Shown in pieces: positions 58,954 through 64,000 of a stretch of 64,000 nucleotides of DNA. Made by a program: the position numbers. Position 1 is the stretch's first letter. Every line of letters starts with the position of its first letter. The DNA is from Zootoca vivipara (lineage: Eukaryota), in the NCBI RefSeq assembly GCF_963506605.1, contig NC_083277.1, forward strand, positions 12,710,001 to 12,774,000, written 5' to 3'.

Positions 58954-61900
58954 GCTCTTCCTATTCTTTCCTGCTTTTAACCTGTCCACCTCGTTCTCGC
59001 TTTCTCTAGCGTGCCCACGACCTCCGGAACCCTCCTCCGACTGGCTGATGATTAAGAACGTGCCACTTGTCTGCCACCAAACAAACAGCTGTGCCTAAAA
59101 TGAATGGATGCTACTTGGGGTACTCGCCACGGGGAGGACAGGATGCCTCCCTGAGCCACCAGCATCGTTGTGAACAAACAGGACCTTTCCAGCAAAAAAC
59201 AATGTTTAAATTATTATTTATGAAACAGATTTATATTTTGCACTTAATATGGGCTCAATGTGCGAGAGCATCTTAGCAGGACGCCCAACTGCTGTGACAT
59301 GACTGACGCGAGGCTGTGGATAAGAGAGGAGGGAGCTGCTTGTGCAATCTCTCGGCTTGATCTCGGGATGCTGGAGAACCGTGAGAAGCCTGTGCATCTA
59401 AGAACAGCCAAGGCCAAGATGTTCTCACAAGGAATTCATTCCTGGCAGTGTGTGTGTGGCCACGTATGCATGAGTGTTGATCTCTTAGATGACACCAGTC
59501 TCTCGGAAAATTACATTGAAGCTTGATTAAAAGCATTTATTTCTACTTCTCTGCCACTTCTTGGCTTGCTGATATGTTCTGAAGACGACACGTTCTGGGG
59601 ACAAGATGCTGGGTAAACAGGGATGTATGTAACCACCTCCTGAAAGTCACTAACAAGGGAGACAGATGCATTTCACAACAGCTTAGTTCTACTTCGTTGT
59701 TCTTTGGTGATCACTCGTAGCTGAGTAAGATTGTCTTCCATAAACACGGTCTTAACAATGAGTCTGTAAGTGACTGTGGAGGCCAATTCTGGAGTTACAC
59801 GTCCTTCCACAGTGGGGACATAGGTTTCTGGGCGGGAGTTGATCATGGTGTAGATTTGCCAAGCGTGCCTTCCTCTTAGCACGTTTCTCCCTTGCGTTCT
59901 GAGTTCGAGTATCTTCAAAGCCCATGACACCTTTAGTAGAGGCTGTTATCCAATTGCAGCACTCGCAGGCCAGTGTTTCCCAGTTGTCTCAGGTGTTTAT
60001 ACTACATTTTTTTTAGATTTGCCTTTATTGAAAGAAACAAAGACCAAAGCCAAACCATTTATCTATTTTACGTCCAATTACATTTTACCCCATCCCCTCC
60101 CCGACCCCCTCAGATTTCCCTCAGCTCCCTTTCCTGGTTTCTTCATTCATATTATTTCTGCATATATTAACGCTATACATATCACTCCAATATTTGTTCC
60201 TATTTTTCTAATATAAAGAAAAAATATGTAATGTTTATTCAAACCCTGCCAGCGACTCCAAGTCACTTTGTTGGTTTTTCAAATAGTTTGTAAATAGCTC
60301 CCATTCTGCCTTGAAATCCCAATTGTCCTTTTCTCGTAGATTATACTGTATGTTAACTTTGCCAGTTCTGCGTAACCCATCAGCCTTCAGAGAGTCTTTA
60401 ATCCTCTTTTGTTGACCACCGGCATTACGCTTTCCATTTTTAAGTTCAGCATAGAGTAGTTACTTTGGAAGATGATAATCAGGCATCCGAACAACATGAC
60501 CAGTCCAACAAAGTTGATGTTGAAGAATAATTGCTTCAACACTGGTGATCTTTGCTTCTTCCAGTACACTGGCATTACAGTCATACCTCGACAACCGAAC
60601 GCTTCGACTTCTGAAGGTTTCGACTTCCAAAGTCGATATCCCCGGAAGTCTTTTCACCGTGCGCACACCGTGCGCACCCAGCACGCGCGTTCTGCGCATG
60701 CGCAGAAGTGCAAAATCGCGCTTCGCACATGCACCAACAGCACGCTTTGACAACCAAAAACCTCGACTTACGAAGACGGCTGCGGAATGGATCGTCTTCG
60801 TAAGTCAAGTTACCAAGACTACTTGGTAAGTCAAGGTATCAGACTACTGTACTTGTCTTTTGAGCCCCAGTATTTATATACTCACTCTCCTGCATTGCAG
60901 GGGGTGGACTAGAATAGATGACTCTTGGGTCCCTTCCAACTCTATGATTCTGTGACTGTTGGTGGCTCTCTAGCCTGCTGGTGGAAGGTCTTCCACGTCA
61001 CGACTGACCTGCTCCTTGTAGGTGGAGATGCCACTGTCCAAATCTGGGGTGTTCTGCTCTGTTCAGCCTGTGTCCTGTTACCAAGCTAAAACAAGACTTT
61101 TCACACATGGAAACTGACCCAAAAACTCTGATTAGATGTTCCGTCTGGTCCCTTCTGCTTCAACATAGATTGTCTCTCTCTTTGCATACCTACATACATA
61201 CAGAATCAGGATTCAAAATGACCTTAACAGATGGGACAGCTGGGACCAAACTAACTAAATGAATGTCAATAGGGACAAATAGGTTCTGCACCTAGGCAGG
61301 AAGAACCAGCTGCACAAATATAAGATGAGGAACGTGTGGGTGGCCAGTAGTACATGTGAAAAGGATCTTCGGGTCTTGGTGGAGCACAACTTAACATGAG
61401 TCAACAGTGAGATGCAGCAGCAAAAAAAGCTAATGGTATTCTAGGCCACTCTCACCTAGAATACCATTAGCTTTTTTTGCTGCTGCATCTCACTGTTGAC
61501 TCATGTTAAGTTGTGCTCCACCAAGACCCGAAGATCCTTTTCACATGTACTACTGGCCACCCACACGTTCCTCATCTTATATTTGTGCAGCTGGTTCTTC
61601 CTGCCTAGGTGCAGAACCTATTTGTCCCTATTGACATACATTTAGTTAGTTTGGTCCCAGCTGTCCCATCTGTTAAGGTCATTTTGAATCCTGATTCTGT
61701 ATGTATGTAGGTATGCAAAGAGAGAGACAATGAGAGTGAGAAGTGAGAGCTGGACCATAAAGAAGGCTGATCGCCGAAGAATTGATGCTTTTGAATTATG
61801 GTGCTGGAGGAGACTCTTGAGAGTCCCATGGACTGCTAGAAGATCAAACCTATCAATTCTTAAGGAAATCAGCCCTGAGTGCTCCCTGGAAGGACAGATC

Positions 61901-64000
61901 GTGAAGCTGAGGCTCCAATACTTTGGCCACCTCATGAGAAGAGAAGAATCCTTGGAAAAGACCCTGATGTTGGGAAAGATTGAGGGCACTAGGAGAAGGG
62001 GACGACAGAGGACAAGATGGTTGGACAGTGTTCTCGAAGCTACGAACATGAGTTTGACCAAACTACGGGAGGCAGTGCAAGACAGGAGTGCCTGGCGTGC
62101 TATGGTCCATGGGGTCACGAAGAGTCGGACACGACTAAACGACTAAACAACAACAACAACATTCTAGGCCACATCAACTGAATTATAGCGTCCAGATCAA
62201 GGGGATGAAGGCAATTATATTCCAGGAACATTTGCAGCGTCACACGTTCCCTGTCTTTGTTTTATGGCCTGATGCTACACATGTTTTATACTCAGAAGTA
62301 TCACGAATTCAGCTGGCAATTCCAAATAGAAATGCATGCAAGAATGCCACCTTGATTTTCTGATTACAATATGCTGTTTTATTTAAGAGTATTGCTACAT
62401 CAGGTTCAAAGGTCCTGCTCTAGAAATTAATCTCTAATAACAGTTGTCCAGACTCCAGAATGAATTCGGGAAGCATGGAGGCCAGGTTCAAAGGAAACTC
62501 TGGTGCTGTTTGCGCTGGCGAATGCCAGGTATACTGCTACTGGAGCTGGAGGTTCCACTTAGCCGTCACACCTAATATAGCTGCTCGCAATGAATATGTT
62601 TCCTTTCCCCTCACCAGCAAATCCTTTCTTAGAACATGCATTTTGGACATTTCGGTTTCTCGATCCTCTCCCCGACCGCCTCGTTTGAGCTCGCTTCCTC
62701 TCGTTTTAGTCCTGTCCCTTTAAGAAGCCGACAAGTGGGCGGAGCTAGAATCCCTATGTATTTTTTTTAATAAAGATGTTTGTTTGTTTTACAAAGTAGA
62801 ATGGGCGTCTCTAACCTTGGTTCCCTCCCTATCTCTACGGTATTTAAGGTCATTGCATGGTCACGTGCTGCCTTTGAAGCCGGCCTTCCTCGTTCCTTTC
62901 TCCAAAGCCAGCCAATCAGAGGCCCGCTAGCGGCCCGGGAGTTCCCTCGGGTTGCTACAGTTTAAACCCAACATTCGGTGCCCGCGGCGCGCTTAAAGGG
63001 GAAGCTGCCCTGGTGGATGCGGAAGAGGGGATCCTGACGGCCGAAGCGATGGGTGCCAGACGTGATCCCAGGAGGGGATTCTATCCTTGGACCAGGCTGG
63101 GCCTCTGCCTACGGCCGGTGCTGTTTCTAGGCCTCTGCTGCTGGCAAACGCGCGGGGTGGCCACCCCTGATCAGGTACGATTGGAAATGTCCCGGGGGGG
63201 TCTATGTGTTGGCCGTGACATGCCCTCCCCCCAATCTGCTCCCCAACCTCACAAAACTGGAAGACAAGTCGTTGGGCACTCAGACCCACTGAACCCAACC
63301 GGTCCGGTCACGTATTGTGCCTCTCTCCTTTCCCCCGGCATAGCTGCCAAGTTATCCCTTATTTTAAGGGATTTTCCCTTATGCTGAATAGGCTTCCTCG
63401 CGAGAAAAGGGAAAACTTGGCAGCTATGTCCCCCGGTCAGGACCGGATGGAAAGCTTTGGAGGCCCTAAACACTTAAAAAAATAGATTATGGTGTGTCTC
63501 CACCCTATATGTAAGTAAAAAAACAAACAAAAGAAAAACGGTACTAGAAACGGGGAAGGGTGTGTGTGGAGTATAAGGAAGTTCTGATTTCCCACCCTCC
63601 TGTCATGTTGACCTACTTCAATGCCTTTTCTGAAATATCAAGTGTCAAATTATTTCCAAAAGAAATATTTTGTTTGCTTTTTGTGCATGCCCCTGCTTTG
63701 CTTGTGCCCTAAGCACATGCTTATTCCGTCTTTTGGGTAGTGGTGGTGGTTGTTAAATATTTTTATACCCTGCCTTTTCCCTGATGGAGACTCAAGATGA
63801 CTTACAGATAAAATAAGAACAGCTAAAATAATAAAGGGGGGCAATACTTTATAACAATTAATAGATTTAAAAATGTGTGTGTGCACATATTAGTTTTCTG
63901 TGGTGGTTCCCCATTTTTGGAATGCTTTTCCCAAGGAGGCTCACCTTTATTACATATATTGAGGTGCCAGGCAAAAACATTCCTGTAAAACCAGGCCTTT

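What the first reader, a model, noticed from the sequence alone, without database searches (positions are those of the whole stretch)
61169..62172. Bov-B insertion that generated a 563-bp near-perfect palindrome by copying its own upstream flank in reverse
Seen, in order: CR1-containing flank; TSD attctaggccac (61438-61449); 5-nt filler; inverted copy of the preceding 277 bp (one mismatch); 8-nt filler; 5'-truncated Bov-B with an open ORF and (CAA)n tail; second TSD (62161-62172); resumption of the CR1 fragment. The spacer cactctca is the reverse complement of tgagagtg at the other junction, suggesting templated microhomology. Inference: during 5'-end joining of target-primed reverse transcription, synthesis switched onto the flanking genomic strand. 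This differs from ordinary twin priming, which inverts element sequence rather than host flank. The result is a cruciform-capable, potentially fragile site ~1.3 kb upstream of the next gene's ATG within the MHC, and a route by which LINEs can create long palindromes.
Basis: partly seen in the sequence, partly recalled or inferred. Interest (0 to 1): 0.75.

Follow-up and report, generated by a model that had tools for sequence, protein, structure and literature searches.

The report
LINE insertion that copied its flank backwards
A truncated Bov-B retrotransposon in a lizard-like genome carries, at its 5' end, a backwards copy of 277 bases of the neighbouring host DNA, making a 563-base hairpin-capable palindrome; the structure is real, but it is a rare by-product of LINE insertion already described for human L1.

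Summary
Arms 61169-61445 and 61455-61731 are 277 nt with one mismatch and a 9-nt spacer. An exact 12-nt duplication (61438-49, 62161-72) brackets spacer, arm 2, filler and a 421-nt Bov-B 3' end. That Bov-B piece is 95% identical to the last 134 residues of a 998-aa Podarcis muralis endonuclease+RT protein.

Arm 1 includes the first 8 nt of the left duplication. After staggered nicking, those bases stay joined to the upstream flank only on the top strand. The best reading is therefore that the upstream ("reciprocal") 3' end folded back on itself, copied 277 nt, and then joined the Bov-B cDNA.

Both junction fillers repeat the element's first bases (P about 0.002-0.03).

This event class is already published for human L1. 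Nam et al. 2023 report foldback inverted duplications 5' of the target site in 4 somatic insertions, 52-220 bp. A 2024-26 preprint gives the same self-annealing model.

So this is a new member of a known kind: Bov-B, a lizard-like genome assembly, a slightly longer arm. Not checked: raw reads, an empty allele, and the CR1 identity of the flank.

The parts
61169..61445 (+). Arm 1: original upstream host flank, including the first 8 nt of the left target-site duplication. This is the template of the inverted copy.
   Evidence: 277 nt, 276 of 277 complementary to 61455-61731. The identity ends abruptly at 61168/61732.
61438..61449 (+). Left target-site duplication, ATTCTAGGCCAC.
   Evidence: exact 12-mer, found only here and at 62161 in the window, with no reverse-complement copy.
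61450..61454 (+). 5-nt filler TCTCA inside the 9-nt hairpin loop (61446-61454). It is an antisense copy of the element's first bases.
   Evidence: 61449-55 is the reverse complement of 61743-49 (7 nt), and 61447-54 is the reverse complement of 61731-38 (8 nt). With a random 5-nt filler, P(match of 8 or more)=0.002, 7 or more 0.0067, 5 or more 0.029.
61455..61731 (+). Arm 2: inverted copy of arm 1, one mismatch at 61638.
   Evidence: 99.64% over 277 nt.
61732..61742 (+). Filler between arm 2 and Bov-B (8-11 nt; the last 3 nt may already be element). With the element's start it forms a tandem AGTGAGA x2 (61735-41, 61742-48).
   Evidence: relatives read ...VVMYG(S/C)ESWT, while the window reads ...MRVRSESWT, so homology starts at the Ser codon 61742-44 (possibly at 61740); repeat structure. 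The 11-mer is unique in the window.
61740..62160 (+). 5'-truncated Bov-B (RTE-clade LINE) 3' end. It holds the last 134 codons, the stop TAA at 62144-46, and an (AAC)n tail at 62147-62160.
   Evidence: 127 of 134 residues identical to residues 865-998 of P0199 (998 aa, Podarcis muralis, Pfam PF03372+PF14529+PF00078); 109,921 library proteins at E<=0.001; two other copies in the window share the same 3' end and tail.
62161..62172 (+). Right target-site duplication, ATTCTAGGCCAC, after which the host flank resumes.
   Evidence: the same reading frame (…KKANGILGH / ILGHIN…) runs out of the left copy and into the right flank.

Best explanation
One target-primed insertion of a 5'-truncated Bov-B produced the whole structure.

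Established TPRT geometry gives the starting point. The bottom strand was nicked at the left edge of ATTCTAGGCCAC and primed cDNA synthesis on the (AAC)n tail. The top strand was cut 12 nt downstream. That left an upstream ('reciprocal') end whose top strand finishes ...GGCCAC-3'.

Inferred steps:
1. The 5' strand of that end was resected by at least about 270 nt.
2. The exposed 3' tail picked up TCTCA(C), a short antisense copy of the very start of the Bov-B insert. This could be a minimal twin-priming step or a trans-templated step.
3. The tail snapped back on itself with a 9-nt loop and at most 1 nt of microhomology, and primed at G61445.
4. A polymerase, either the element's RT or a host enzyme, copied 277 nt of the tail's own strand.
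5. The new 3' end was released and joined to the 3' end of the Bov-B cDNA through stuttered re-priming, which left the tandem AGTGAGA.
6. Second-strand synthesis was completed.

The result is a 563-bp near-perfect palindrome next to the element, all enclosed by the 12-nt duplication. It has no designed function. It is a repair by-product that leaves a hairpin- and cruciform-capable sequence.
For: Shown directly:
- The 12-nt exact duplication encloses spacer, arm 2, filler, Bov-B and tail, and nothing else.
- The arm includes 61438-61445, the first 8 nt of the duplication. After staggered nicking these bases are contiguous with the upstream flank only on the top strand.
- Both fillers derive from the element's first bases. 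The loop carries the reverse complement, the second junction a direct tandem copy (P about 0.002-0.03). This ties both junctions to the moment when the cDNA end was present.
- The Bov-B piece belongs to a young, abundant lacertid family. It is 95% identical to a full-length endonuclease+RT protein that represents a 178-member cluster. This agrees with only 1 of 277 arm mismatches and 12 of 12 matching duplication bases.

Precedent:
[quoted passage not shown] It attributes them to about 52-220 bp of extra DNA synthesis.
[quoted passage not shown] It shows one experimental clone and one tumour example, each with a small hairpin, 2-bp microhomology and a retained duplication.
- PMC11371274 (passages) describes snap-back 5' junctions for R2-protein-driven insertions.
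- PMC11724301 (abstract only) describes foldback-templated inverted duplications at yeast breaks.
Against: - No reads, no second haplotype and no orthologous empty site could be examined. A single-event origin, and even the physical existence of arm 2, therefore rest on sequence logic.
- Microhomology at the fold-back point is at most 1 nt.
- The arm (277 nt) is longer than the 52-220 bp reported for L1.
- The element's first base is known only to within about 3 nt, because no lacertid Bov-B nucleotide sequence covering this point was available. The exact filler, and the idea that the antisense copy ran to the end of the RNA, are uncertain.
- The filler link rests on 5-8 nt.
- A palindrome of this geometry is expected to be unstable (PMC7999016, passages), yet it sits in an assembled genome.
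- Which polymerase made the copy is unknown.
Confidence: 0.7

Rival explanations
1. The growing Bov-B cDNA did the copying. After reaching the end of the RNA, its 3' end switched onto flanking genomic DNA, copied 277 nt, and then joined the upstream end through the GTG/CAC overlap.
For: Read along the bottom strand, the order is element, filler, arm-1 sequence, TGAGA, then GTG, which is complementary to the last 3 nt of the duplication. That would be a 3-nt microhomology join. In R2-protein-driven insertions, cDNA 3' ends prime extra synthesis on cDNA or, less often, on nearby target DNA (PMC11371274, passages).
Against: The required template is a bottom strand running uninterrupted from 61169 to 61445. 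On the nicked target the upstream bottom strand ends at 61437, and the next bases belong to the primer strand. An intact sister chromatid or homologue would therefore be needed, which is less parsimonious (inference plus TPRT geometry).
Confidence: 0.12
2. Two separate events: an ordinary truncated Bov-B insertion, and later an unrelated double-strand break at the same junction repaired by fold-back synthesis.
For: Fold-back templated inverted duplications arise at ordinary breaks (PMC11724301, abstract). A human population study reports 277 inverted duplications outside mobile-element insertions, median length 284 bp (PMC12350158, passages). Fillers copied from the other side of a break would also echo the element's start.
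Against: The later break would have to fall exactly between an intact 12-of-12 duplication and the element's first bases, with no loss on either side. TPRT places DNA ends there by necessity.
Confidence: 0.06
3. Assembly artefact: a fold-back chimeric long read introduced arm 2.
For: Near-perfect palindromes are a known artefact type of long-read libraries (recalled, not tested). The arms differ at only 1 of 277 positions. No read data could be seen.
Against: A fold-back read would continue into the reverse complement of the sequence left of 61169. Here arm 2 ends sharply and joins the element through a structured filler, the turn has a 9-nt asymmetric loop, and the whole lies inside a contig between matched duplications.
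Confidence: 0.07

Closest known systems
[quoted passage not shown]
   Same: An inverted copy of the upstream host flank sits between the upstream target-site duplication and the 5' end of a LINE insert. The duplication and tail are retained, and the copy is attributed to extra DNA synthesis at final resolution. One of the four cases also had an internal (twin-priming) inversion, which may parallel the short antisense Bov-B piece in the loop here.
   Different: That work concerns L1 in human somatic clones. This is Bov-B (RTE clade) in a lizard-like genome assembly. The arm is 277 nt against about 52-220 bp. The junction fillers here can be traced to the element's first bases.
Inverted duplication of genomic DNA on the reciprocal end by remodelling of ORF2p-induced break ends (bioRxiv 10.1101/2024.12.14.628481, Fig. 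4 legend and text passages seen)
   Same: [quoted passage not shown] The duplication between the two ends is kept.
   Different: That work reports 2-bp microhomology at the turn, whereas here it is at most 1 nt plus a 5-nt templated filler. It gives two examples only (one clone, one tumour), both L1 and both human.
Twin priming (Ostertag and Kazazian 2001; seen only in reference lists; content recalled)
   Same: The upstream top-strand 3' end acts as a second primer during insertion. The 5-7 nt antisense Bov-B piece in the loop would be a minimal case.
   Different: Twin priming inverts element sequence copied from the RNA. Here the 277-nt inverted segment is host flank copied from DNA.
Snap-back 5' junctions of R2-protein-driven transgene insertions (PMC11371274, passages)
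   Same: A 3' end primes extra DNA-templated synthesis before the 5' junction forms, giving antisense sequence at that junction.
   Different: In that system the cDNA end is the primer and the template is mostly the cDNA itself. Here the template is host flank that includes part of the duplication.
Model fragile palindromes: inverted Alu pairs with a 12-bp spacer, and human PATRRs (PMC7999016, passages; PMC1851657, abstract start in the listing)
   Same: The geometry is comparable: arms of roughly 300 bp, a spacer of 9-12 bp, and near-identity. The total size falls in the PATRR range (about 190-600 bp).
   Different: This palindrome is 43% G+C, not AT-rich. No instability has been measured for it.

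Membership tests
Bov-B / RTE-clade LINE insertion made by target-primed reverse transcription | Coding homology to the RTE-type ORF (apurinic-type endonuclease plus reverse transcriptase) | tested here: met
   127 of 134 residues identical to residues 865-998 of a 998-aa Podarcis muralis protein carrying PF03372, PF14529 and PF00078. The name 'Bov-B' itself is recalled. The sources call these proteins 'ribonuclease H' or 'reverse transcriptase domain-containing'.
Bov-B / RTE-clade LINE insertion made by target-primed reverse transcription | Element 3' end with a short-repeat tail abutting the target-site duplication | tested here: met
   TAA followed by ACAACAACAACAAC up to 62160, directly followed by the duplication; the two other copies in the window end the same way.
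Bov-B / RTE-clade LINE insertion made by target-primed reverse transcription | Flanking target-site duplication and 5' truncation | tested here: met
   12 of 12 exact, unique pair; only the last 134 of 998 codons are present.
LINE insertion with fold-back inverted duplication of the upstream (reciprocal) flank | Inverted copy of upstream host DNA between the upstream duplication and the element's 5' end, with the duplication retained | tested here: met
LINE insertion with fold-back inverted duplication of the upstream (reciprocal) flank | Small hairpin turn with little or no microhomology | tested here: met
   9-nt loop, with no pairing possible beyond G61445:C61455. At most 1 nt of shared base if the filler is read as TCTCAC.
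LINE insertion with fold-back inverted duplication of the upstream (reciprocal) flank | Size of the extra synthesis about 52-220 bp, as reported for L1 | tested here: not met
   The arm is 277 nt, modestly above the reported range. That range comes from only 4 cases, so this is a weak criterion.
LINE insertion with fold-back inverted duplication of the upstream (reciprocal) flank | Arose in one event with the insertion (the empty allele has one arm and one duplication copy) | not testable with these tools
Twin priming | The inverted segment is element sequence | tested here: not met
   The 277-nt inverted segment is host flank. Only 5-7 nt in the loop are antisense to the element.
CR1 LINE fragment as the interrupted host sequence | Homology of both flanks to a CR1 ORF2, contiguous across the restored site | tested here: inconclusive
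   no protein hits; no other copy in the window; no Pfam match. Only the shared reading frame across the site and my recalled resemblance to the CR1 ORF2 C-terminus support it.

The most novel reading that the evidence does not exclude
The Bov-B reverse transcriptase itself, rather than a host repair polymerase, made the palindrome. The upstream 3' end would first have primed on the 5' tip of the element's RNA, leaving the antisense TCTCAC. The same enzyme would then have jumped to DNA and copied 277 nt of the primer's own strand, before jumping again to the cDNA with stuttering.

If this is general, RTE-clade LINEs would be a recurrent, heritable source of long near-perfect palindromes, and of hairpin-RNA or fragile loci, in squamate genomes. 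The inclusion of duplication bases in the arm would then be a direct read-out of which strand primes second-strand synthesis.
Probability: 0.15. Interest if true: 0.55.

Novelty: new member of a known kind. Interest (0 to 1): 0.3.

Why it matters
This event class has so far been documented in human somatic or tumour cells and experimental clones: 4 cases in PMC10191854 and 2 in the preprint. This example shows it also occurs with a different LINE clade, in what appears from its closest named protein matches to be a lacertid lizard, and that the product appears in a genome assembly.

The junctions are clean enough to say which strand served as template. They also show that both fillers come from the element's first bases.

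The product has 277-bp arms, a 9-bp spacer and 99.6% arm identity. This resembles the inverted Alu pair with a 12-bp spacer that stalls replication forks and breaks chromosomes in model systems (PMC7999016, passages). It lies in a gene-dense block syntenic with the MHC class III region. If real, it is a natural test case for how long such palindromes persist.

My literature searches found nothing on Bov-B or on non-human germline examples:
- 7 papers hold the terms, 6 listed.
- 2 hold the terms, 1 listed, unrelated.
- 1 paper.
- 4 hold the terms, 3 listed.
- 36 hold at least 3 of the 4 terms, 15 listed.

Subscription-only papers and supplements were not seen and may hold earlier cases.

Tried and rejected
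- **CR1 identity of the flank.** Two protein searches with the flank's frames, stops read as X, gave 3 and 21 word-sharing candidates and no scoring hit. Pfam gave nothing for the two flank frames (for the Bov-B piece it gave only one sub-threshold Mis12 match). tblastn and sensitive blastn of an in-script empty-site model against the rest of the window gave only weak matches, the best E=1e-4 over 49 nt. The CR1 label therefore stays a recalled resemblance.
- **Protein atlas.** I stopped that line.
- **Rfam on 60000-64000.** There were 5 matches, all to microRNA-precursor models, all below their gathering scores. Four of them form mirror-image pairs on both strands (mir-556 and mir-15). This is a generic long-hairpin effect, not an RNA gene.
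- **Other Bov-B 5' junctions in the window.** Only two further fragments exist (5292-5569 and 6526-6592, minus strand). I did not look for inverted flank copies at their 5' ends, so the two give no frequency estimate.
- **Exact first base of the element.** Protein alignments place it at 61740-61743. No lacertid Bov-B nucleotide sequence covering this point was available.
- **Models considered and set aside.** A hairpin-capped end opened far from the tip (P-nucleotide type) is implausible at 277 nt. Sister-chromatid fusion fold-back would not return to the element after 277 nt.
- **Not done.** No empty-allele or read search was made. The nanomonsv paper held nothing on flank duplications at L1 insertions.
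Full report
**Observation**

The region was read directly and analysed with the repeat finder and a script.
- Arms 61169-61445 and 61455-61731 are 277 nt each and complementary at 276 of 277 positions. 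The exception is 61262/61638, both A on the + strand.
- The arms are separated by CCACTCTCA (61446-54), and complementarity stops abruptly at both outer ends.
- The 12-mer ATTCTAGGCCAC occurs at 61438 and 62161 and nowhere else in the window on either strand.
- Between the two copies lie 711 nt: 5 nt TCTCA, arm 2, an 8-11-nt filler, and 421 nt (taking 61740 as its first base) ending in TAA plus ACAACAACAACAAC.
- As single-stranded DNA, 61150-61760 folds at -359 kcal/mol, against -69 +/- 5.5 for 20 shuffles.
- Among the 19 inverted repeats in the window with arms of at least 40 nt and at most 3 kb apart, this is the longest and the only near-perfect one. The next has 150-nt arms at 89%.
- The window contains no N.

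**What the inserted element is**

The frame 61688-62146 is open. Its part from 61742 matches a very large family: 109,921 representative proteins at E<=0.001.

A word-indexed search for longer relatives listed 120 rows.
- 13 rows are named Podarcis muralis entries at 90-95% identity, and one is Zootoca vivipara at 85%.
- The remaining rows are unnamed ENA or JGI proteins at 57-82%.
- The 998-aa P. muralis protein P0199 represents 178 member sequences and carries PF03372, PF14529 and PF00078.
- P0199 aligns at residues 865-998 with 127 of 134 identities.

This is therefore the last 13% of an RTE-type endonuclease+RT ORF. The name Bov-B is recalled, not given by any source.

tblastn of P0199 against the window finds only this copy and the fragment at about 5300-5570. 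blastn adds a 67-nt 3' end at 6526-6592. Both other copies end in the same ...CGACTAAA(C/T)GACTAAACAACAACA tail.

The relatives read ...VVMYG(S/C)ESWT where the window reads ...TMRVRSESWT. Homology therefore begins at the Ser codon 61742-44. It may begin at 61740 if the family's Gly codon is GGA, which I could not check.

**The flank**

The left flank's frame ends ...LNMSQQ-X-DAAAKKANGILGH (X marks a stop). The right duplication opens the same frame, ILGHIN-X-IIASRSRG. So one decayed reading frame passes through the restored site.

I recall this as the C-terminal part of a CR1 ORF2, but no tool confirmed it.
- Two protein searches found nothing.
- Pfam found nothing.
- The rest of the window holds no second copy of this part.

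A separate 65-nt repeat at 60888-60955 has 9 other copies in the window. From memory it looks like a CR1 3' end, and it belongs to a different copy.

**Which strand was copied**

In standard target-primed reverse transcription, the bottom strand is nicked at the left edge of the future duplication. The top strand is cut at its right edge. After both cuts, the upstream bottom strand ends at 61437, while the upstream top strand runs on through 61449.

The inverted copy reproduces 61169-61445, which includes 8 nt of the duplication. On the broken target itself, only the top strand carries that stretch in one piece.

The simplest path is therefore as follows. The upstream top-strand 3' tail, made single-stranded by resection of its partner, folded back with a 9-nt loop. 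It primed at G61445 and copied itself for 277 nt.

The alternative has the cDNA end copying the bottom strand from 61169 rightwards. That would run off at 61437 unless an intact sister chromatid or homologue served as template.

**The fillers**

- The loop's CTCTCAC (61449-55) is the reverse complement of GTGAGAG (61743-49), at or within 3 nt of the element's first bases.
- CACTCTCA (61447-54) is the reverse complement of TGAGAGTG (61731-38).
- At the second junction, AGTGAGA occurs twice in tandem (61735-41, 61742-48), so the filler is a stuttered copy of the element's start.
- I replaced the 5 loop-filler bases with random bases 200,000 times. A reverse-complement match covering the filler and reaching 8 nt arose in 0.2% of trials, 7 nt in 0.67%, and 5 nt in 2.9%.

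I read this as follows. The upstream 3' end first sampled the tip of the Bov-B RNA or its copy before folding back. The final join to the cDNA then needed repeated abortive priming. This part is inference from 5-8 nt and from the known behaviour of microhomology-driven end joining (recalled).

**Comparison with what is known**

- **Nam et al. [quoted passage not shown] One further insertion also had an internal inversion (0.1%). They explain these by about 52-220 bp of additional DNA synthesis at final resolution.
- **bioRxiv 10.1101/2024.12.14.628481 (abstract, Fig. [quoted passage not shown] It shows one experimental clone and one tumour, each with 2-bp microhomology, a small hairpin and a retained duplication.
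- **R2-protein-driven insertions (PMC11371274, passages).** These show a 'snap-back' class of 5' junctions.
- **Yeast breaks (PMC11724301, abstract only).** These show foldback-templated inverted duplications.
- **A human population study (PMC12350158, passages).** It lists 311 inverted duplications among insertions, 277 of them outside mobile-element events with a median of 284 bp. It does not link them to mobile-element junctions.

The present case is therefore the same kind of event with a different LINE clade, in a lizard-like genome assembly, with a somewhat longer arm. It is not twin priming in the strict sense, because the inverted segment is host DNA.

**Rivals**

- **cDNA-end template switching:** about 0.12.
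- **A later independent break at the same junction:** about 0.06. It would need a break exactly between an intact duplication and the element's first base.
- **Assembly fold-back artefact:** about 0.07. It is argued against by the sharp end of arm 2, the structured fillers and the asymmetric loop, but it cannot be tested without reads.

**Context**

I scanned single stop-to-stop frames one at a time. Pfam was run on 133 frames of at least 98 aa and on 68 further frames between 50 and 64 kb.
- Ski2_N, MTR4 beta-barrel, a sub-threshold MTR4-like stalk match and DSHCT pieces lie on the + strand between 7.2 and 37.1 kb.
- Three RAI1 (DXO-type) pieces lie on the - strand between 44.6 and 49.1 kb.
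- One sub-threshold Stk19 match lies at 53604-53855 (+).

From memory, that order matches the SKIV2L-DXO-STK19 block of the mammalian MHC class III region.

It lies in an ORF with a signal-peptide-like start, 58% G+C surroundings and no family match. I could not verify that it is a gene start.

**Consequences**

These are inferred, not tested. The geometry is 277-bp arms, a 9-bp spacer, 99.6% arm identity and 43% G+C. It resembles the inverted Alu pair with a 12-bp spacer that stalls forks and causes breaks in yeast and primate cells. The total size lies in the range of human PATRRs (PMC7999016, passages; PMC1851657, abstract start in the search listing).

One difference in 277 nt and none in the 12-nt duplication suggest a recent event, or homogenisation between the arms. 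The Poisson range for a single difference is wide.

**Verdict**

This is a real and well-resolved structure, most likely made in one Bov-B insertion by fold-back synthesis on the upstream end. The event class is already described for human L1, so this is a new member of a known kind. Interest is modest (0.3).

Still unchecked:
- reads;
- an empty allele;
- the genome-wide frequency at Bov-B junctions;
- the CR1 label;
- the exact first base of the element;
- supplements and subscription-only literature.

Noticed in passing
window 7263-37147 (+), 44638-49098 (-), 53604-53855 (+): Exon-sized frames match Ski2_N, MTR4 beta-barrel and DSHCT (a Ski2-type helicase gene, + strand). Three others match RAI1 (a DXO-type gene, - strand), and one gives a sub-threshold Stk19 match. 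From memory this is the gene order of the mammalian MHC class III block.
   Followed up: partly
window 5292-5569 (-) and 6526-6592 (-): Two further 5'-truncated Bov-B 3' ends have the same ...GACTAAACAACAACA tail. They are 90% and 93% identical to the copy studied. I did not look for inverted flank copies at their 5' ends.
   Followed up: partly
window 60888-60955 (+) and 9 other sites (e.g. 35808-35870, 1017-1075, 23790-23854): A repeat of about 65 nt (…GGACTAGA…GGTCCCTTCCAAC…) is present in 10 copies at 78-93% identity. From memory it looks like CR1 3' ends.
   Followed up: no
window 58094-58243/58529-58678; 40383-40496/41231-41344; 38647-38745/38782-38880; 34640-34695/34706-34761: Other inverted repeats have arms of 56-150 nt at 85-95%. 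Several carry a recurring GGGACTACA.CTCCCATCATCCC motif, probably paired or hairpin-type short interspersed elements.
   Followed up: no
window 62878-63387 (+), ATG at 63049: An ORF with a signal-peptide-like start (MGARRDPRRGFYPW…LFLGLCCW) lies in a 58% G+C stretch with CpG observed/expected 0.65. It may be the first exon and promoter of the next gene. It has no Pfam match.
   Followed up: partly
window 61346-61554, both strands: Five sub-threshold Rfam matches to microRNA precursor models (MIR8562, mir-556, mir-15) are centred on the palindrome's turn; the mir-556 and mir-15 matches occur on both strands. This is a generic effect of a perfect long hairpin, not evidence of a microRNA gene.
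   Followed up: yes
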